NCBI GenBank assembly: GCA_027451665.1
Contig: DAIDIW010000002.1
Span: 1-46,250, forward strand
Source: Candidatus Kaiserbacteria bacterium
GTDB lineage: Bacteria; Patescibacteriota; Minisyncoccia; Phycocordibacterales; Phycocordibacteraceae
Length of the DNA stretch: 46,250 nucleotides
Reading direction: 5' to 3'
Part shown: positions 3,928 to 10,233 of the stretch, piece by piece
How the letters are laid out: each line of letters begins with the position of its first letter
Position numbering within the stretch: position 1 is the stretch's first letter
Made by a program: the position numbers and the translations under genes
Notes under the pieces: model-generated
Databases searched by the model: none
What the model was told of the DNA's origin: nothing
What the model saw: only the letters and a program-made list of their open reading frames with translations

Positions 3928-4599
3928 TTAGCGCCGCGTGGTCGTGGCGGTCGAGGTAGCGAGCGCGCCCTTGGGGAAATCGCCCTCGAGATCAGCGAGC
4001 GAGGTAAAACCGTAGAAGTGCTTCCCGTTTATGATAAACGCAGGGAGCGCATCCTTCAGCTTCTCTACCTTTATGAGCGTCGTGAGGGCGCCGAGGTTCA
4101 GATTGTAGTCAAAGGAATACACGCGAAGCGCGGGGTAGGTATCGCGCAGGTAAGAGAGCGCATAGCCAGCCTTCGCACACTCAGCGCAATCGCCCGCGTT
4201 GCTGTAGAAATACAGGACCGTGATCGGCTTCGTGCCGCACGCGGCTGCGAGCTGCTTCGTAATGAGATAGTCGCGGATCTCAAGCAGGGAGTACTGCTCC
4301 TTCAGCCGTATGACTTCCGCGTTGTCACTGCCGAGCTGTCCTTCCGCATAGGCGAGCCGGTTCCCGAGGTCGGTGAGCTCGCCTGTAAGGTCGGTCGAGG
4401 AGGCCGTATCGCAGGGGGCGGTCTCGAGCAGCGAGAATTGGGTATCGAGCGACAGCGTATCGATCGAGAGCTGATCCTCGATAGCGGAGAGCTCGGCCAC
4501 GCGCTGCTGGTTCAGGTAGCTGATGGCGTAGGCGACGGTGCCCACGAGGACCACGGTTATACCGAGCGCGATGAGGCTGTTGCGAGTAACTATCGACAT
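3928..4599 (-). CDS. Membrane-anchored protein with C-terminal thioredoxin-like CxxC domain
   Basis: N-terminal TM, coiled coil, VLYFYSNAGDCAECAK...LRVYSFD, and a cis-Pro-like LPAFII. TAGAGT -10 lies 7 nt upstream. Confidence 0.8.
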   Translation of the reverse strand: MSIVTRNSLIALGITVVLVGTVAYAISYLNQQRVAELSAIEDQLSIDTLSLDTQFSLLETAPCDTASSTDLTGELTDLGNRLAYAEGQLGSDNAEVIRLKEQYSLLEIRDYLITKQLAAACGTKPITVLYFYSNAGDCAECAKAGYALSYLRDTYPALRVYSFDYNLNLGALTTLIKVEKLKDALPAFIINGKHFYGFTSLADLEGDFPKGALATSTATTTRR

Positions 4600-4626: not shown

Positions 4627-5868
4627 TTATTTCCAGCGGCGCTGCTTGCCGATCGCGACGTCTGCCGTGGCACGCAGGAGCCAGAGCGGAGCGACGAAGC
4701 CGTAGAGCAGGGTATAGGCGAGAAGGCCGACCGGGAGCGACTGCGGGGAGCGAGAAAGCCGTTTGCCCATGGCGATCATGATGAGCGAGGCAAACAGTGC
4801 GGTTATACCGAGGAAGATGTAGAGCGAAGAAGGCAGGTAGAACCAATCGAAATGAGGAAAGGAAGGCAGGAACGCATACCCGAGCGGGATCCCTTGGCGT
4901 ACCGAGATCATGAGGATGACCTGGGCGATCGACGTGTAGAGGAAGAGCGAGAAGAGTATGAGGCCGCTCGCGATCGCGAGCACCGCGATCGGAAGCACGA
5001 TAAGTCCGAGCGCGCCAAACGATGGATTGCCGACGAGATCGCGATACTCGTGCATCACGTTGCGCATGAACCCGGTCGTCCAACGGGTACGCTGCTTGAC
5101 GAGCTTGCCGACTGTGCGCGGGGCCTTCGTATAGACACGCGCGCGCGGCGCATTGTCTATCTCATAGCCAGCGCGCTGGATATGGAGCGCCATCTCCATG
5201 TCCTCCGTCTTATGTCCCTCGCGGAATCCCCCAAGCGCGACCACGACCGCGCGCCGGTAGAACGAGAACGGGCCGGGCGTCACATAGAGCCCGTTCACGG
5301 CCGCGAGCGCATGGCGCAGCGTCACGCCAAACGTGTACTCGGCGTTCTGCATGTGTTCGAGGAGATTCTTCGGTTCGTGCACGGTCATGGCAGCCGTCGT
5401 GGCCGCTACTTCAGGGCGGTCGAAACAGGGAACGATTTCCTTGAGCGCATCCGGTTCGACGAACGAGTCGGCATCGAGACAGCCAATGAGATCGGCATCT
5501 GTCTGCGCAATGCCCGCATTCAGTGCGGTGTGTTTCCCTCCGTTCTCCTTGCGGATCACTTTCACCTGCGGATGCGCGCGGTAGCGATCCATCGTCGCGG
5601 GCGTCGTATCCGTCGAGCCGTCATCGACAAGGATTACTTCGAGCCGGCCGGTAGGGTAGTCGAGCGCGAGGAGCGATTCCACCGTGCCGCCGATGGTCGA
5701 TTCCTCGTTATAGCAGGGTACGATGACCGCCACCTTCGGATAGTTACCGGAGGCAGGGGAGCGCTTCCGCGCGTCGCGCGCGGGTTTCGAGAGGAACGTG
5801 ACCAGGATGAACGATTCGAAGAAAATGGCCACGAACAGGAACGGGTAGGCGATCAGCCCCGGGCTCAT
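4627..5868 (-). CDS. Processive GT2 glycosyltransferase (IcaA/PgaC/hyaluronan-synthase-like)
   Basis: IVPCYNEE, VDDGSTD, GGKHTALN, LDADS, TEDME, KQRTRW (QxxRW), plus N- and C-terminal TMs. Confidence 0.92.
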   Translation of the reverse strand: MSPGLIAYPFLFVAIFFESFILVTFLSKPARDARKRSPASGNYPKVAVIVPCYNEESTIGGTVESLLALDYPTGRLEVILVDDGSTDTTPATMDRYRAHPQVKVIRKENGGKHTALNAGIAQTDADLIGCLDADSFVEPDALKEIVPCFDRPEVAATTAAMTVHEPKNLLEHMQNAEYTFGVTLRHALAAVNGLYVTPGPFSFYRRAVVVALGGFREGHKTEDMEMALHIQRAGYEIDNAPRARVYTKAPRTVGKLVKQRTRWTTGFMRNVMHEYRDLVGNPSFGALGLIVLPIAVLAIASGLILFSLFLYTSIAQVILMISVRQGIPLGYAFLPSFPHFDWFYLPSSLYIFLGITALFASLIMIAMGKRLSRSPQSLPVGLLAYTLLYGFVAPLWLLRATADVAIGKQRRWK

Positions 5869-5875
5869 GACTCCC

Positions 5876-5884
5876 AGAATAGCA
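5876..5884 (-). promoter_or_regulatory. Extended -10 promoter of the GT2 gene (TGCTATTCT)
   Basis: 7 nt before ATG 5868. Confidence 0.65.
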
Positions 5885-5916
5885 CCGTGGCGCCGGTATT
5901 TCTAGTGAAGGAAAAC

Positions 5917-7071
5917 CTAGCGGATCGTGGCGGCGAATGCCTCGGCGGTCGCGTGTTCGAGCCGCGTATGGAGCGCGTCGACCTCGGTGCTCGTGAGCGT
6001 GCGGTCGAGCGCGCGATAGGTGATACGGTAGGCGTAGCTCATCTTGTTCGGTCCGAACTTCGCGTCGTTCTCGTAGCGGTCGAGGAGCGCTACGTCCTCG
6101 ACAAGGTCGCCGCCGATTTCGCGCACGAGGTCGAAATAATCGTTCGGCACGAAGGTCTTCGGCACGACGAAGGAAATGTCACGCAAGGAGGGCGGATACT
6201 TCGAGACCTCGTGGTAGGTCTCTCCGAGCACGAGCTGCCGCTTCACACGCGCGTCGTCGCTCCAGAGGAGCCGGATATCCGGCAGCGCCATGCTCGCAAT
6301 CGCAAGCCGCTCGAGACCAAAGCCGAACGCCCAGCCGTGATAGCCCGTCACGCCCATTTTCTTCAGCACGCTCGTTTTTGGCATGCCGCCGCCCAATAGC
6401 TCGAGCCACTCGCCTTTGGCGGGTCCTTCTGCCGCCGTGCCCTTCACGTTCAACTCGAGCTCGAGCGAAGGATCGGTGTAGGGGAAGGTGTCCGGATTGA
6501 AACGGAATCCAACGGACTCGCCGAAGACGCTCCTCGCGATCTGCGCGAGCGTCCCCTTCAGGTCCTCGACGGTCACCGCTTCGGTATCCGGCGCGATATA
6601 CCAGCCGCCCAACTGATGGAAGACATTCATATGGCGGCTGTCGATCTCGTCCTTGCGGTATACCTTGCCGTAGCAGATCGCGCCCATGGATTCTCCTTTC
6701 GCAAGACGCTCCTTCACGCGCGGATCGGTGAGGTAGTAGTACCAGAAAACAGTGTCATGGGTTCGTAGGATGTTGTTTGCATCCACGTAGTAGGTATCGC
6801 TCTGCGAGCGCGCCGGATGGTCTGGCGGAAAGTCGAAGAGGTCGAACGATATGTCTGCCGGTACGATCTCAGGAATTTCGATGACGTCGAATCCGGCAAG
6901 CGTCGGCACCCGCTTTACCCGCTCGACGAGCTCGTGGAGCGGGCTGCCGGGCGTACGGGAGAGATCGGGCATCGCGAGGTAGCGACGTTCGCGGATGGCC
7001 TCGAAATCGCTACGCGCCTCGAGCTCCTTCCGAAGGTGCATTTCTTCGCTGCGGTCAATCTGTATCTCCAT
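5917..7071 (-). CDS. pheS: Single-chain phenylalanyl-tRNA synthetase: alpha catalytic domain fused to the FDX-ACB anticodon-binding domain
   Basis: HPARSQSDTYY, LRTHDT, GKVYRKDEIDSRHMNVFHQL, FPYTDPSLE, GWAFGFGLERLA, then SKYPPSLRDISF...SYAYRITYRALDRTLTSTEV. Start moved to ATG 7071 (384 aa). Confidence 0.92.
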   Translation of the reverse strand: MEIQIDRSEEMHLRKELEARSDFEAIRERRYLAMPDLSRTPGSPLHELVERVKRVPTLAGFDVIEIPEIVPADISFDLFDFPPDHPARSQSDTYYVDANNILRTHDTVFWYYYLTDPRVKERLAKGESMGAICYGKVYRKDEIDSRHMNVFHQLGGWYIAPDTEAVTVEDLKGTLAQIARSVFGESVGFRFNPDTFPYTDPSLELELNVKGTAAEGPAKGEWLELLGGGMPKTSVLKKMGVTGYHGWAFGFGLERLAIASMALPDIRLLWSDDARVKRQLVLGETYHEVSKYPPSLRDISFVVPKTFVPNDYFDLVREIGGDLVEDVALLDRYENDAKFGPNKMSYAYRITYRALDRTLTSTEVDALHTRLEHATAEAFAATIR

Positions 7072-7079
7072 GATGTCCG

Positions 7080-7112
7080 AGTGTAGCAGGCGCATCCGCG
7101 GTGCGCTACGAT
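7080..7112. promoter_or_regulatory. Back-to-back divergent promoters (pheS TGCTACACT on -, phosphatase TACGAT on +)
   Basis: -10 boxes at 7080-7085(-) and 7107-7112(+), 8 and 6 nt from their ATGs, in a 47-bp intergenic gap. Confidence 0.6.
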
Positions 7113-7118
7113 AGGCGC

Positions 7119-7751
7119 ATGGAGATTGTGAAGCACGTCTACCTCGTCCGGCACGGGGAGACGGATAGCAATGTCGACGGTATCTTTCGCGGACGTGACT
7201 CCGCACTTACCGAGCGCGGCAAGAAGCAGGCGCAGATCGTTGCGGAACGCATCAAGCATCTTGCTATCGAGGCGCTCGTATCGAGCACCTATCCGCGCGC
7301 GCTTGATACTGCAAGCGCGATCGCGGAAGCCACGGGCCTCATGGTGGAGCCGAGTGAGCTCTTCGTTGAGACGGGAGAAGCGAGCGTGCTCAGAGGAAAA
7401 CCGAAGGATCACCCGGAACGGATTGCAGCACTTGCTGCGATGGATGCGCAGAACCACCCTGACTACCGTCATTCCGACGAAGAGAATTTCCGAGAACTTT
7501 CCGAACGTGCGCAAGCGGCGCTCGACTTCCTGCGGAATCACGAGGCCGCATCATTGTGCGTCGTCACGCACGGCGCGTTCTTGAGAGTCCTCATGGGCTC
7601 AGTGCTCTTTAGGGATGACTTCTTGAGAAGCCAATTCGTGCAGATGCTCCGTCATTTTAAGACCGAGAACACGGGAGTGAGTCATATCTCTCATACGAAC
7701 GACAGGGGGTGGCAGCTCATAACGCTTAACGACGACGCGCATCTTCTTTAG
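7119..7751 (+). CDS. Histidine phosphatase family (phosphoglycerate mutase-like) protein
   Basis: YLVRHGET, SSTYPRALDTA, VTHGAFLR, NTGVS. Start moved to ATG 7119. Confidence 0.9.
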   Translation: MEIVKHVYLVRHGETDSNVDGIFRGRDSALTERGKKQAQIVAERIKHLAIEALVSSTYPRALDTASAIAEATGLMVEPSELFVETGEASVLRGKPKDHPERIAALAAMDAQNHPDYRHSDEENFRELSERAQAALDFLRNHEAASLCVVTHGAFLRVLMGSVLFRDDFLRSQFVQMLRHFKTENTGVSHISHTNDRGWQLITLNDDAHLL

Positions 7752-7753
7752 TC

Positions 7754-8104
7754 ATGGACTACGTCACGCTCTCACATCTGAAGATCATCGGGATCCACGG
7801 CCATCATGATCATGAACGCCACGTGGAGCAGGAGTTCGAGGTCTCTTTGCGGGTCGGATGCGATGTAGGCGCGGCAGGGAAGTCGGATTCGCTCCCGGAT
7901 ACGATCGATTTTGACTTCCTGCGCGGCTGCGTCGAGGAGGTATTCGCGCGGAAGAGCTATTATCTTGTCGAAGCATTGGCCGAGGACGTCGCCAAGGCGA
8001 TTTTTATGGACGACCGCGCGAAGGAAATCACCGTCTCTGTACAGAAAAAGGCCGTCTGGCCGGATGCCGTCCCCGGCATCGAGATTACCCGGAAACGCGC
8101 GTAA
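7754..8104 (+). CDS. folB: Dihydroneopterin aldolase family protein
   Basis: IGIHG..E...EQEFEVSL, DSLPDTIDF, LVEALAE, VSVQK; starts 2 nt after the phosphatase stop. Confidence 0.88.
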   Translation: MDYVTLSHLKIIGIHGHHDHERHVEQEFEVSLRVGCDVGAAGKSDSLPDTIDFDFLRGCVEEVFARKSYYLVEALAEDVAKAIFMDDRAKEITVSVQKKAVWPDAVPGIEITRKRA

Positions 8105-8154: not shown

Positions 8155-10233
8155 ATGGCTAAAAAGGCTGAAAACGAGATCAAGAAATCCTCCTATGACG
8201 CCTCGAGCATCCAGGTGCTCGAGGGACTTGAACCGGTCAGGAAGCGCCCGGGCATGTACATCGGGACGACCGGTCCCGAGGGCCTCCATCACCTCATCTG
8301 GGAGATCTTCGACAACGCGCGCGACGAGGCCATGGGCGGCTACGCCGACGACATCGAGGTGGCGCTCCTTCCGGGCGGCTACGTGCGCGTAGTCGATAAC
8401 GGCCGCGGCATTCCTGTCGGCATCCATCCGAAGACGAAGGTCTCGGCCCTGGAGACGATCATGACGACGCTCCACGCGGGCGGCAAGTTCGGCGGCGAAG
8501 ATTCCGGCTACAAGGTCTCAGGCGGTCTCCATGGCGTCGGCGCCTCCGTTGTGAACGCGCTCTCGACCAACATGAAAGTGCTCGTCCACAAGGACGGCGG
8601 GATCCACATGCAGGAATACAGGATCGGCAAGCCGCTCGCGAAGGTGAAGCAGGTCGGCAAGACGAAGCGACAGGGTTCGATCGTCATGTTCAGCCCCGAT
8701 GCGAGCATCTTCACTGGCGGCATTGAATGGAACTGGGAGAAAATTGTGAACCATCTTCGACAGCAGGCGTATCTTGTGAAGGACGTTCGCATCACGGTGA
8801 TTGATGCACGCGAGGACACGCGCGCCGGGATGGAAGCAGACGACGCATTCTACTTGCGCGAGCTCCCGCTCGACGTTCCTTCCATGACCTTCTTCTTCGA
8901 GGGCGGTCTCCGTTCGCTCGTCGCCTTCTACAACAAGTATCAGACACCGGTCCATAAGAACATCTTCTACGTCGACAAGGAGCAGGACGGCGTCGCCGTC
9001 GAGGTCGCGCTCCAGTACGTGGACGACATTACGCCGCGGCTCATTGCGTTTGCGAACAATATTTACAATCCTGAGCACGGGACGCACGTAACTGGTTTCA
9101 AGACGGCCCTCACGCGCACCCTGAACACCTACGGGCGCGCGGCGAACCTTATCAAGGAGAAGGACGAGAACTTCACGGGCGACGACGTGCTCGAGGGCAT
9201 CACCGCGGTTGTCAGCGTGAAGCTGCCGGAGATCCAGTTCGAAGGGCAGACCAAAGCGAAGCTCGGGAGCGTCGAGGCCCAAGGCGCGACCGCGACCGTA
9301 TTCGGCGAAGCGTTCGCGGCCTTCCTCGAGGAAAATCCCGACGACGCGAAGGCGATCGTGAACAAGGTGCTGCTTGCCTTGAAGGCGCGTAAGGCCGCGA
9401 AGGCCGCGAAGGACTCGGTGCTCCGCAAGGGAGCGCTCGAGGGTATGACGCTCCCAGGGAAGCTCGCGGACTGCCAGACGAAATCTGCTGAAGAGTCCGA
9501 GCTCTTCATCGTAGAGGGAGACTCGGCAGGCGGCACCGCGAAGACCGGACGCGACCGCCGTACGCAGGCCATCCTGCCCTTGCGCGGCAAGATCCTGAAC
9601 GTCGAGCGGGCGCGTCTCGACAAGATGCTTGCCTCCGAACAGGTGAAGAATCTCGTGGTCGCCTTGGGCACCGCGATCGGCGACATCTTCGATCTCTCGA
9701 AGCTCCGCTACCACAAGCTCATCATCGCGACCGATGCCGACGTGGACGGCGCGCACATCCGGACGCTCATCCTGACGCTCTTCTACCGTCATTTCCGCGC
9801 CATCATCGACGGCGGATTTGTCTACATCGCGCAGCCGCCGCTTTATAAGATCACCCGCGGTAAGGAGGTACGCTACGCCTATGTGGATGCGGAGAAGGCG
9901 AAGATACTGAAGGAGATGGGCGTCGCCGAAGAGGATGCCGTCGAATCGAGCGAAGAAGCGCCGATTGAGAACGAAGCTGAGGAGGAAGCGGGTGCGCCGA
10001 AGGTGAAGAAGAGCGCACGTGCGAACGTGCAGCGCTACAAGGGCCTGGGTGAGATGAACGCGTCCGAACTCTGGGAGACCACGATGGATCCGGCTCATCG
10101 CGTGCTGAAGCGGGTTACGGTCGAAGATGCCGAGGCTGCCGACAGGATCTTCGACATCCTCATGGGTACCGACGTCGCAAGCCGCAAATCGTTTATCCAG
10201 TCGAATGCGAAAGCCGCGACCTTGGACGTGTAA
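8155..10233 (+). CDS. gyrB: DNA gyrase subunit B
   Basis: YDASSIQVLEGLEPVRKRPGMYIG, GGLHGVGASVVN, EGDSAGG, ATDADVDG, QRYKGLGEMN. Confidence 0.97.
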   Translation: MAKKAENEIKKSSYDASSIQVLEGLEPVRKRPGMYIGTTGPEGLHHLIWEIFDNARDEAMGGYADDIEVALLPGGYVRVVDNGRGIPVGIHPKTKVSALETIMTTLHAGGKFGGEDSGYKVSGGLHGVGASVVNALSTNMKVLVHKDGGIHMQEYRIGKPLAKVKQVGKTKRQGSIVMFSPDASIFTGGIEWNWEKIVNHLRQQAYLVKDVRITVIDAREDTRAGMEADDAFYLRELPLDVPSMTFFFEGGLRSLVAFYNKYQTPVHKNIFYVDKEQDGVAVEVALQYVDDITPRLIAFANNIYNPEHGTHVTGFKTALTRTLNTYGRAANLIKEKDENFTGDDVLEGITAVVSVKLPEIQFEGQTKAKLGSVEAQGATATVFGEAFAAFLEENPDDAKAIVNKVLLALKARKAAKAAKDSVLRKGALEGMTLPGKLADCQTKSAEESELFIVEGDSAGGTAKTGRDRRTQAILPLRGKILNVERARLDKMLASEQVKNLVVALGTAIGDIFDLSKLRYHKLIIATDADVDGAHIRTLILTLFYRHFRAIIDGGFVYIAQPPLYKITRGKEVRYAYVDAEKAKILKEMGVAEEDAVESSEEAPIENEAEEEAGAPKVKKSARANVQRYKGLGEMNASELWETTMDPAHRVLKRVTVEDAEAADRIFDILMGTDVASRKSFIQSNAKAATLDV

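What the first reader, a model, noticed from the sequence alone, without database searches (positions are those of the whole stretch)
5917..7071. Single-chain, mitochondrial-type PheRS in a bacterium
Seen: a 384-aa ORF joining the PheS catalytic motifs directly to the ferredoxin-fold anticodon-binding domain (SKYP..RDISF...YRALDRTLT), with no pheT beside it. Established: bacterial PheRS is normally an alpha2beta2 heterotetramer with FDX-ACB at the end of PheT; the alpha+ACB monomer is the architecture of mitochondrial FARS2, which lacks the B3/B4 editing domain. Inference: an editing-less monomer relevant to genome streamlining and to the origin of organellar PheRS.
Basis: partly seen in the sequence, partly recalled or inferred. 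Interest (0 to 1): 0.78.

Follow-up and report, generated by a model that had tools for sequence, protein, structure and literature searches.

The report
Single-chain PheRS replaces pheST in Parcubacteria
This ultra-small (Parcubacteria/CPR) bacterium charges tRNA-Phe with a one-piece, proofreading-free enzyme built like the mitochondrial one. The gene sits in the chromosomal slot where close relatives keep the usual two-subunit bacterial enzyme.

Summary
Window 5917-7071 (-) encodes a 384-aa protein with a PheS class-II core (PF01409, 1.5e-53) joined directly to an FDX-ACB anticodon-binding domain (PF03147, 2.8e-21).

It is the only PheRS in a 0.72-Mb, 96.8%-complete genome. There is no pheT, no B3/4 editing domain and no second PheS, and a normal tRNA-Phe(GAA) is present.

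In 301 Patescibacteria genomes the single-chain form (20 genomes) and pheT exclude each other. Two relatives deposited as single chromosome records also lack pheT.

The AlphaFold model (pLDDT 90) matches closed human mitochondrial PheRS over its full length (TM about 0.74).

In trees, the bacterial single-chain clade is a well-supported sister of the eukaryotic mitochondrial clade. It is not a member of that clade and fails the TIGR00469 cut-off. Both its domains lie far from the CPR bacteria's own PheS and PheT.

The gene occupies the slot upstream of gyrB, where class-mates and even a congener carry pheS-pheT.

The amino-acid pocket is remodelled: Phe→Tyr198, Gln→Trp110, and a coupled Glu/Asp155→Gly with Thr106→Asp change.

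Verdict: a real, housekeeping, editing-less PheRS. It is a new bacterial variant of a known organellar architecture. I found no description of it in the literature I could search. Monomeric state, fidelity and direction of transfer remain untested.

The parts
5917..7071 (-). Single-chain phenylalanyl-tRNA synthetase gene (384 aa plus stop), P0001
   Evidence: ORF and translation. Pfam PF01409 plus PF03147. Best PDB sequence match is human mitochondrial PheRS, E 3.7e-53. AF2 model pLDDT 90.4, Foldseek TM 0.73-0.75 to 3CMQ/5MG*.
6946..7071 (-). N-terminal extension, residues 1-42: two short helices in place of the long coiled coil of bacterial PheS
   Evidence: DSSP on the model gives helices 8-18 and 23-33. 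The TIGR00468 match starts only at profile position 71. The segment is conserved among homologues.
6235..6945 (-). Class IIc catalytic core, residues 43-279, with motif 2 (Arg139, Gln153) and motif 3 (GWAFGFGLER, Ala248, Arg255)
   Evidence: PF01409 at 43-279. Genome hit at 6235-6945. Motif alignment. Codon check.
6742..6759 (-). H105-D106-T107-V-F-W110, replacing the canonical H-T-S-P-V-Q loop of the amino-group hydrogen-bond network
   Evidence: Alignment. Residue roles in M. tuberculosis PheRS are taken from PMC8136816. Tabulation over 215 sequences.
6607..6609 (-). Gly155, at the position of the otherwise universal Glu/Asp after FHQx (Mtb alpha-Glu217)
   Evidence: Every other PheRS type sampled has E or D here. 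Gly155 pairs with Asp106 in 189 of 190 sequences; Asp155 pairs with Thr/Asn/Ile106 in 25 of 25.
6478..6480 (-). Tyr198 in FPYTDPS, where bacterial, organellar and the Wolfebacteria-type single-chain enzymes have the second Phe of FPFT
   Evidence: Motif counts: 115 of 121 FPYTDPS; FPFT in all but one canonical PheS row (P0244 has FPYTEPS) and in nearly all readable clade-B rows. Alignment.
5920..6204 (-). FDX-ACB (PheT B8-type) anticodon-binding domain, residues 290-384
   Evidence: PF03147, profile 1-94 of 94. Matches TIGR00472 pheT positions 699-798. In the domain tree it groups with organellar FDX-ACB against 16 CPR PheT sequences, support 96/91.
8155..10233 (+). gyrB, the conserved positional anchor of the PheRS slot
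   Evidence: ORF. gyrB lies within 4 kb of the single-chain gene in 54 of 79 relatives. pheS-pheT-gyrB is the order in G256, G178, G026 and G226.
7101..8104 (+). Histidine phosphatase (7101-7751) and folB (7754-8104), lying between PheRS and gyrB in this genome
   Evidence: Pfam PF00300 and PF02152. Present at this place in only 2 and 5 of 79 relatives.
4627..5868 (-). GT2 glycosyltransferase immediately downstream on the same strand
   Evidence: Pfam. Same position in 29 of 79 relatives, with gaps of 20-200 bp.

Best explanation
The gene encodes the cell's sole, housekeeping phenylalanyl-tRNA synthetase.

Proposed mechanism. One chain carries the class IIc catalytic core, which makes Phe-AMP and transfers Phe to tRNA-Phe. 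A C-terminal ferredoxin-fold domain reads the GAA anticodon. By analogy with human mitochondrial PheRS, the enzyme rests in a closed form and swings the anticodon-binding domain open to bind tRNA. This hinge motion is inferred.

Fidelity. There is no beta subunit and no B3/B4 editing site. Discrimination against Tyr and m-Tyr must therefore rest on the synthetic site. That site keeps the gatekeeper Ala248 but is remodelled at Tyr198, Trp110 and the Asp106/Gly155 pair.

Evolution. The gene belongs to an old bacterial single-chain lineage that is sister to the mitochondrial enzyme. In this lineage of Parcubacteria it has displaced pheS-pheT at the same chromosomal slot next to gyrB, probably by lateral transfer within the radiation.

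What is shown and what is inferred. Shown: architecture, fold, uniqueness in the genome, mutual exclusion with pheT, phylogenetic position and positional replacement. Inferred: monomeric state, hinge mechanism, catalytic competence and fidelity.
For: Architecture and fold. The model matches closed-state 3CMQ at TM 0.74 and open-state 3TUP at 0.54.

Sole PheRS in the genome:
- The pheT model hits only this protein's own FDX-ACB and a 111-aa tRNA_bind ORF.
- B3_4 gives no hit at E<=0.1, while all 14 control genomes ring.
- The only other PF01409 hit is HisRS.
- tRNA-Phe(GAA) with G1-C72, A73 and an encoded CCA is present.

Mutual exclusion:
- 20 of 301 phylum genomes carry the single-chain form. 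In all 20 the pheT model finds only short domain-level matches, with best E between 1e-11 and 6e-45 and none over the cut-off. Inspected cases were the enzyme's own FDX-ACB or a stand-alone B2-like ORF.
- All but three of the other genomes, which are 77-87% complete, give a pheT match. Most are at E<=1e-90, and 239 are over the family cut-off.
- Two relatives deposited as single chromosome records (OY970354.1, OZ246418.1) also lack pheT.

Conservation: 6306 homologues found, 120 of them at 71-82% identity with invariant motifs. At least 568 species genomes carry a relative.

Phylogeny:
- Single-chain sequences separate from all PheS, including 14 CPR PheS from the same class and order, with 100/100 support.
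- The bacterial clade A has 100/99 support and the mitochondrial clade B 100/92.
- The FDX-ACB domains of A and B group together against CPR PheT with 96/91 support.

Same slot:
- In genus g5, G256 has 992-aa ORF | pheS | pheT | gyrB, while G284 has 989-aa ORF | single-chain PheRS | gyrB.
- The order pheS-pheT-gyrB also occurs in G178, G026 and G226.
Against: - No biochemical or expression data exist for any member.
- The universal acidic residue of motif 2 is Gly here, which could mean altered or reduced activity. Against that, the change is coupled to a new Asp106 and is fixed in 189 sequences.
- The protein fails the trusted cut-offs of all three NCBIfam models: pheS_mito 205.9 < 258, SrmL 204.8 < 300, pheS 158 < 237.
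- The genome is a 9-contig MAG, so absence of pheT in this particular genome rests partly on the relatives with complete chromosomes.
- Oligomeric state cannot be read from sequence.
Confidence: 0.82

Rival explanations
1. The chain is not self-sufficient. It works with a small trans-acting tRNA-binding partner, a 'mini-beta'. In this genome the candidate is the stand-alone 111-aa tRNA_bind OB-fold protein (genome contig C7:950-1285). In other lineages it is a 137-197-aa ORF homologous to the PheT B2 domain.
For: - The pheT model's second hit in the genome is this OB-fold ORF; Pfam tRNA_bind E 2.2e-24.
- In 6 of 80 related loci a PheT-B2-like ORF lies directly upstream of the single-chain gene on the same strand.
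- G006 has one elsewhere, matching pheT positions 38-156 at E 5.9e-45.
- Most single-chain genomes give two pheT-model matches.
Against: - The ORF in this genome is of the general CsaA/Trbp111 kind. It is unlinked to PheRS, lying after a 157-aa ORF (481-954) and before a 365-aa ORF (1345-2442), both unannotated.
- A search seeded with it found nothing beside PheRS in 80 relatives.
- No B2-like ORF is detectable in this genome.
- Human mitochondrial PheRS works without such a partner (general knowledge).
- The B2 domain is reported as dispensable and is often missing or relocated in CPR PheT (PMC5370408).
Confidence: 0.12
2. It is a PheS-related paralogue with another job, like the NCBIfam 'mystery ligase' SrmL. 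The true PheRS would be missing from the assembly, or Phe-tRNA would be supplied by a host.
For: It scores as well on SrmL (204.8 bits) as on pheS_mito (205.9) and passes neither cut-off. The amino-acid pocket departs from every characterised PheRS at three to four positions.
Against: - It is mutually exclusive with pheS/pheT across 301 genomes.
- pheT is absent from two relatives deposited as single chromosome records.
- The gene takes the pheST slot next to gyrB.
- tRNA-Phe is encoded.
- The ring-contacting Phe196, Thr199, Ala248 and the catalytic Arg139, Gln153, His105 and Arg255 are kept.
- The SrmL cut-off is missed by about 95 bits.
- Import of charged tRNA by bacteria is unknown.
Confidence: 0.04
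3. It is the sole PheRS but acts as a homodimer, the usual class II state, rather than as a monomer.
For: Class II synthetases are normally dimeric. Clade A has a clade-specific insertion of about 10 residues before motif 2 (YYLxxPxxKxxxxxGE) and a 42-residue N-terminal helical piece. Either could form an interface.
Against: The closest structural relatives are monomers: human mitochondrial PheRS, PDB 3CMQ/3TUP. In the model the FDX-ACB domain packs on the catalytic domain as in the closed monomer. No multimer prediction could be run here.
Confidence: 0.15

Closest known systems
Mitochondrial/organellar monomeric PheRS (human FARS2, PDB 3CMQ and 3TUP; yeast MSF1; NCBIfam TIGR00469 pheS_mito; 'PheRS-M' of AARS Online, PMC11580382)
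   Same: - Same two-module chain, a PheS core followed by a PheT B8-type FDX-ACB domain, with the same junction (…PDIRLxWSxDxRxxxQ…SKYPxxxRDISF).
- Same fold in the closed state, TM about 0.74 over roughly 400 aligned columns.
- No beta subunit and no editing domain.
- Both the core and the FDX-ACB domain are its nearest relatives in trees.
   Different: - Separate, reciprocally monophyletic clade (100/99 against 100/92).
- Scores 205.9 bits against a cut-off of 258.35, whereas all seven clade-B members scanned pass.
- Only 30-32% identity to human FARS2.
- Lacks the eukaryotic insertion after motif 2 and has its own insertion of about 10 residues before motif 2.
- Pocket changes: HTSxxQ to HDTVFW, FPF to FPY, FHQxE to FHQxG.
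- It is a bacterial chromosomal gene serving the cell's whole translation system.
Canonical bacterial (alpha-beta)2 PheRS (pheS TIGR00468 plus pheT TIGR00472; e.g. T. thermophilus 1PYS, M. tuberculosis 7DAW)
   Same: Homologous catalytic core (E about 1e-32 to 1e-36 to solved PheS chains). The FDX-ACB domain is homologous to the last domain of PheT. Same tRNA substrate. Same chromosomal slot upstream of gyrB as pheS-pheT of class-mates.
   Different: One chain instead of two. It lacks PheT domains B1-B7, including the B3/B4 editing site, and the PheS N-terminal coiled coil. It scores 158 bits against a cut-off of 237 for pheS. A 100/100 branch separates it from all PheS sampled, including CPR PheS.
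SrmL, 'PheS-related mystery ligase' (NCBIfam NF051887)
   Same: A bacterial protein family whose 349-position profile aligns along both the core and the FDX-ACB region of this protein (profile 32-345).
   Different: The score of 204.8 bits is far below the 300-bit cut-off. None of 14 control genomes carries an SrmL above cut-off. Here the protein is the only PheRS candidate, so a 'mystery' side function is not the economical reading.
Replacement of plastid (alpha-beta)2 PheRS by a retargeted mitochondrial-type monomer in diatoms and other algae (PMC4494062)
   Same: A documented case where the one-chain enzyme functionally displaced the two-subunit one, allowing loss of the beta-subunit gene (syfB).
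   Different: That case happened inside eukaryotic cells by gene duplication and retargeting. Here the displacement is in free bacterial chromosomes, at the pheST locus itself.

Membership tests
Organellar monomeric PheRS (TIGR00469 / PheRS-M) | PheS-type class IIc catalytic core with motifs 1-3 | tested here: met
   PF01409, E 1.5e-53. Motif 2 Arg139/Gln153 and motif 3 Ala248/Arg255 are invariant in 50 homologues.
Organellar monomeric PheRS (TIGR00469 / PheRS-M) | FDX-ACB (PheT B8-type) anticodon-binding domain fused directly to the C-terminus of the core | tested here: met
   PF03147, profile 1-94 of 94, E 2.8e-21. The junction aligns residue for residue with human FARS2.
Organellar monomeric PheRS (TIGR00469 / PheRS-M) | No beta subunit and no B3/B4 editing domain serving the same compartment | tested here: met
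   Whole-genome searches with TIGR00472 and PF03483. The same holds in two relatives deposited as single chromosome records.
Organellar monomeric PheRS (TIGR00469 / PheRS-M) | Three-dimensional fold and closed domain arrangement of 3CMQ | tested here: met
   AF2 model pLDDT 90.4, pTM 0.87. Foldseek TMq 0.73-0.75 and probability 1.00 to 3CMQ/5MG*.
Organellar monomeric PheRS (TIGR00469 / PheRS-M) | Score above the curated cut-off of the equivalog model | tested here: not met
   205.9 bits against a cut-off of 258.35. All seven clade-B proteins scanned score 283-335.
Organellar monomeric PheRS (TIGR00469 / PheRS-M) | Placement inside the organellar clade in a phylogeny | tested here: not met
   It lies in the separate bacterial clade A (100/99), sister to the mitochondrial clade B (100/92).
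Organellar monomeric PheRS (TIGR00469 / PheRS-M) | Active as a monomer; large hinge rotation of the anticodon-binding domain on tRNA binding | not testable with these tools
   Only a single-chain model could be made. It resembles the closed state (TM 0.74) more than the open state 3TUP (TM 0.54).
Bacterial PheRS alpha subunit (TIGR00468 pheS) | Score above the curated cut-off; N-terminal coiled coil | tested here: not met
   158.1 bits against a cut-off of 237.45. The match starts at profile position 71, and only 42 residues precede the core.
Bacterial PheRS alpha subunit (TIGR00468 pheS) | Partner pheT gene in the genome, forming the (alpha-beta)2 enzyme | tested here: not met
   No pheT is present. 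The two forms are mutually exclusive across 301 genomes.
SrmL PheS-related ligase (NF051887) | Score above the curated cut-off | tested here: not met
   204.8 bits against a cut-off of 300.
Functional PheRS (EC 6.1.1.20) | Phe-specific aminoacylation of tRNA-Phe | not testable with these tools
   Indirect evidence only. It is the sole candidate in the genome. The ring-binding Phe196, Thr199 and Ala248 are kept. A cognate tRNA-Phe(GAA) is encoded at genome contig C9:27135-27210.

The most novel reading that the evidence does not exclude
The alpha-core/B8 fusion known as 'mitochondrial PheRS' was not invented in eukaryotes. On this reading it arose once in bacteria, possibly within the Candidate Phyla Radiation at the pheS-pheT-gyrB locus itself. 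It became the only PheRS of large parts of the Parcubacteria and of at least one TGA-recoded lineage. It was then passed to eukaryotes and huge phages. These bacteria would run their whole proteome without PheRS proofreading. A re-engineered synthetic site (Tyr198, Trp110, and relocation of the acidic residue from position 155 to 106) would substitute for editing.
Probability: 0.3. Interest if true: 0.8.

Novelty: new variant of a known kind. Interest (0 to 1): 0.64.

Why it matters
Textbooks and the aaRS classification I could read (AARS Online, PMC11580382; PMC10810186) treat the one-chain PheRS as the mitochondrial/organellar form, and bacterial PheRS as an (alpha-beta)2 enzyme with a proofreading site.

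Here a large, deep bacterial radiation uses the one-chain form as its only PheRS. This matters in four ways:
1. It gives the organellar enzyme a bacterial sister group. The long-open origin of the alpha/B8 chimera becomes testable.
2. It offers natural cases of whole-cell translation without PheRS editing, which bears on how much Tyr and m-Tyr mistranslation a cell tolerates.
3. It shows essential-gene displacement at a fixed chromosomal slot, even within one genus.
4. It affects annotation. These proteins are labelled 'alpha subunit' or 'hypothetical', so pheT-based completeness markers will under-score such genomes.

Tried and rejected
- **Literature.** Six full-text searches found no paper describing a bacterial or CPR single-chain PheRS. 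The search terms covered monomeric, single-chain and mitochondrial-type PheRS, PheRS-M, CPR/Patescibacteria with PheRS, and SrmL. AARS Online and its companion paper list PheRS-M only with FARS2. Mukai et al. 2017 discuss loss of the CPR PheT B2 domain but not this enzyme. Absence from this library is not proof that the enzyme is unpublished.
- **Second PheS in the genome.** Rejected. The weak PF01409 hit at genome contig C2:51543-51749 is HisRS.
- **Mis-binning of the G256 pheST contig.** Rejected. The 7.7-kb contig ends in gyrB residues 2-98, which overlap the gyrB fragment (residues 53-686) at the end of contig C5. Its 992-aa flanking ORF is the orthologue of the one beside the single-chain gene in G284.
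- **Recent in-situ origin by a pheS-pheT internal deletion.** Not supported. CPR PheS and PheT of the same class sit far from the single-chain core and FDX-ACB in both trees. An older origin from CPR-type PheS cannot be rejected (AU test p = 0.31).
- **'Oligoflexia' carrier (P0126) as evidence for spread outside CPR.** Its 120 best relatives that carry names are all Parcubacteria: Wolfe-, Staskawicz-, Nealson- and Portnoybacteria. I do not rely on that label.
- **The genome's tRNA_bind ORF as a conserved neighbour of PheRS.** No hits in 80 loci.
- **Distances in the model.** The Asp106-to-Gly155 distance could not be measured, because model coordinates are not exposed to the Python box.
- **Promoter and terminator scan of 5700-7400.** Nothing above chance.
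Full report
**1. The observation**

Window 5917-7071 (minus strand) is an open frame of 384 codons plus a stop. It has two Pfam domains:
- tRNA-synt_2d, the PheS-type class II core, at residues 43-279 (E 1.5e-53).
- A complete FDX-ACB domain at residues 290-384 (E 2.8e-21, profile 1-94 of 94).

The best solved-structure match by sequence is human mitochondrial PheRS (3CMQ/8P8X, E 3.7e-53). It ranks ahead of bacterial PheS chains (E about 1e-32 to 1e-36), while PheT chains match only the last 100 residues. The neighbours are a GT2 glycosyltransferase (4627-5868, -), a histidine phosphatase (7101-7751, +), folB (7754-8104, +) and gyrB (8155-10233, +). No pheT lies beside it. A 392-aa gene call from an upstream ATG exists in the databases. 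However, nearly all of 120 homologues are 383-386 aa and start at the equivalent of the ATG at 7071.

**2. Is it the cell's PheRS?**

The window lies in a 720-kb, 9-contig genome estimated to be 96.8% complete.
- Six-frame searches with the pheT model found only this protein's own FDX-ACB domain and a short OB-fold ORF on another contig.
- The B3/4 editing-domain model found nothing at E<=0.1, although it rings in all 14 control genomes.
- The only other weak PheS-core hit is HisRS.
- A standard tRNA-Phe(GAA) with G1-C72, A73 and an encoded CCA is present.

I then searched 301 genomes drawn evenly from the phylum.
- 20 carry the single-chain form.
- In all 20 the pheT model gives only short domain-level matches, with best E between 1e-11 and 6e-45 and none over the cut-off.
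- All but three of the other genomes, which are 77-87% complete, give a pheT match. Most are at E<=1e-90, and 239 are over the family cut-off.
- The strongest of the 20, G006 at E 5.9e-45, turned out to be a 137-aa stand-alone PheT-B2-like ORF, not a pheT.
- Two relatives deposited as single chromosome records (OY970354.1, 829 kb; OZ246418.1, 808 kb) carry the single-chain gene and no pheT.

Assembly gaps therefore do not explain the absence. This chain is the housekeeping PheRS, and the lineage has no PheRS editing domain.

**3. Structure**

An AlphaFold2 model built on 50 homologues has mean pLDDT 90.4 and pTM 0.87. Foldseek against the PDB ranks human mitochondrial PheRS first over the whole length: TMq 0.73-0.75 and about 400 aligned columns for 3CMQ and the 5MG* entries. 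The open, tRNA-bound state 3TUP scores TM 0.54. Bacterial PheS chains cover only the core. The model thus shows the closed arrangement of the organellar monomer. Whether this enzyme is a monomer, and whether it opens in the same way, is inferred.

**4. Family and distribution**

The protein has 6306 homologues among 8000 scored candidates. The best 120 are 71-82% identical. They are annotated, where annotated at all, as 'phenylalanyl-tRNA synthetase alpha chain' or 'hypothetical protein' of Parcubacteria/Patescibacteria. Named carriers include Candidatus Kaiser-, Zambryski-, Colwell-, Nomura- and Liptonbacteria, and Paceibacterota/Minisyncoccia. A second sub-group, 43-45% identical, covers Wolfe-, Staskawicz-, Nealson- and Portnoybacteria. 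A third sub-group (448-456 aa) sits on bacterial contigs that translate only if TGA is read as a sense codon.

**5. Phylogeny**

I used an exhaustive search of 1.84 billion cluster representatives to assemble several sets: full-length single-chain proteins, the best canonical PheS, and PheS/PheT taken from 16 Patescibacteria genomes, six of them in the window's own class or order.

A careful maximum-likelihood tree (LG+C20, 74 rows) gave three results:
- One 100/100 branch separates all single-chain proteins from all PheS.
- Bacterial clade A (17 rows) has 100/99 support.
- Clade B (33 rows) has 100/92 support.

Clade B contains mitochondrial PheRS of animals, fungi, a choanoflagellate, a fern and an alveolate. 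It also contains short 345-367-aa forms, one of which lies on a 494-kb phage-like contig.

All seven clade-B members scanned pass the TIGR00469 cut-off. Clade A members, including this protein at 205.9 against 258, do not. The FDX-ACB domains of A and B together separate from 16 CPR PheT FDX-ACB domains with 96/91 support. Both modules are therefore nearer to the organellar enzyme than to the CPR's own PheS/PheT, which fits a single fusion event ancestral to A and B.

The direction of transfer is not resolved, because A and B are reciprocally monophyletic. An AU test also does not reject a tree that joins the single-chain proteins with CPR PheS (p = 0.31). PheT from non-CPR bacteria was not sampled.

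**6. Displacement at one locus**

In the window's own class the trait is patchy: 5 of 17 sampled genomes carry it. In class-mates G178, G026 and G226 the order is pheS-pheT-gyrB on one strand.

Two genomes of one GTDB genus differ at this locus:
- G256 has 992-aa ORF | pheS (255 aa) | pheT (598 aa, with B3_4, B5 and FDX-ACB) | gyrB.
- G284 has the orthologous 989-aa ORF | single-chain PheRS (opposite strand) | gyrB.

The G256 contig ends inside gyrB and overlaps the rest of gyrB on another contig, so this is not a binning artefact. Among 79 related loci, gyrB lies within 4 kb of the single-chain gene in 54. It is divergent in 36 and downstream on the same strand, exactly as for pheS-pheT, in 16. 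In this window a histidine phosphatase and folB have been inserted between the two genes.

In the gene tree the window's protein and its family-mate G143 nest, with 100/99 support, among proteins of families placed in another class (f28, f82, f89). The same-order G284 and the same-class G241 branch lower. Taken together, this points to lateral spread within the radiation, with replacement of pheST at a fixed slot.

**7. The active site**

Residue roles are taken from the M. tuberculosis PheRS structures (PMC8136816).

Kept residues:
- Ring-contacting Phe255, Thr258 and Ala305 correspond to Phe196, Thr199 and Ala248.
- Arg201, Gln215 and His175 correspond to Arg139, Gln153 and His105.

Changed residues:
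- Phe257 is Tyr198. FPYTDPS occurs in 115 of 121 close homologues, while the Wolfebacteria-type, organellar and canonical enzymes have FPFT.
- Ser177 is Thr107.
- Gln180 is Trp110 in nearly all of clade A.
- Glu217 is Gly155. This is the acidic residue that holds the substrate amino group through water, and it is Glu or Asp in every other PheRS sampled.

Gly155 occurs only in one sub-clade (6 rows, 100/99). There it is coupled to Asp106. Over 215 sequences the pairs are D106/G155 in 189, T/N/I106/D155 in 25 and Y106/G155 in one. This looks like one relocation of the acidic group within the same hydrogen-bond network. It counts as one evolutionary event, not as statistical covariation. Whether these changes tune fidelity in the absence of editing is a hypothesis.

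**8. Known relatives and novelty**

In architecture and fold the protein works like organellar PheRS. It is not a member of that equivalog, since it fails both the cut-off and the clade test. It is also not a bacterial alpha subunit (no partner; 158 against 237 bits) and not SrmL (204.8 against 300 bits). Displacement of a two-subunit PheRS by the one-chain form has a precedent in diatom plastids (PMC4494062).

Six literature searches found no description of a bacterial single-chain PheRS. The classification papers list PheRS-M only with FARS2. Earlier notes of this scan had reported the same family in other genomes. I re-tested their main claims here. I rate the finding a new bacterial variant of a known kind.

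**9. Limits**

- There is no biochemistry and no expression data.
- The window's genome is a MAG.
- Taxon names for the G-handle genomes are not available.
- The PheT outgroup is CPR-only.
- The B-clade short forms are only partly identified.
- Oligomeric state is unknown.

Noticed in passing
L121 8001-9104 (JGI 3300024262, contig Ga0210003_1000004, 494 kb): A 367-aa TIGR00469-type single-chain PheRS (P0146) sits on a 494-kb contig. Its neighbours include a terminase large-subunit-like gene, a NUMOD homing endonuclease, Clp protease, a class I GluRS/GlnRS-type synthetase, T4-type RNA ligase and PNKP. The contig looks like a huge phage carrying aaRS genes. Several other short (345-367 aa) members of the organellar clade are unnamed metagenome proteins.
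   Followed up: partly
L024 6001-7371 and L025 154-1524: A 456-aa single-chain PheRS (P0133, bacterial clade A) lies on bacterial contigs next to ATP synthase genes. It translates to the database protein only if TGA is read as a sense codon. At least one recoded lineage therefore also uses the one-chain enzyme.
   Followed up: partly
L099 3531-3962; also L077, L085, L101, L102, L103; G006:C1:41657-42007: A 137-197-aa ORF homologous to the N-terminal B2 (OB-fold tRNA-binding) domain of PheT lies directly upstream of the single-chain PheRS, on the same strand, in 6 of 80 related loci. It is unlinked in G006, where it matches pheT positions 38-156 at E 5.9e-45. It may be a leftover or trans-acting 'mini-beta'. 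None is detectable in the window's own genome.
   Followed up: partly
Own genome, contig C7:950-1285 (locus L002): A stand-alone 111-aa tRNA_bind (Trbp111/CsaA-like) ORF (Pfam E 2.2e-24) lies between a 157-aa ORF (481-954) and a 365-aa ORF (1345-2442), both unannotated. It is the only other hit of the pheT model in the genome.
   Followed up: partly
L018 4820-7385 (G256); L106 (G178); L108 (G226); L109 (G026): The canonical PheRS of the window's class-mates is itself reduced. In G178 and G256 PheS is only 244-255 aa, without the N-terminal coiled coil (about 345-360 aa in G226 and G026). PheT is 598-690 aa and lacks the B1/B2 N-terminus, while keeping B3_4, B5 and FDX-ACB.
   Followed up: partly
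L108 258-4274 (G226): The gyrB ORF is about 1338 aa. Its matches to the window's GyrB fall in three blocks (residues 1-461, 460-529, 529-692) separated by long inserts, so it may contain inteins.
   Followed up: no
window 3928-4599 (-): A 223-aa ORF with an N-terminal hydrophobic segment and no Pfam match keeps its place downstream of the GT2 gene and PheRS in 29 of 79 related loci. The block PheRS, GT2 and this ORF, with tsf beyond it, is conserved.
   Followed up: no
window 7072-7100: Only 29 bp separate the conserved PheRS start (ATG at 7071, minus strand) from the divergent histidine phosphatase frame (GTG at 7101). No sigma-70-like promoter or clear Shine-Dalgarno sequence was found. The phosphatase may start at its second Met (residue 7, about position 7119).
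   Followed up: no
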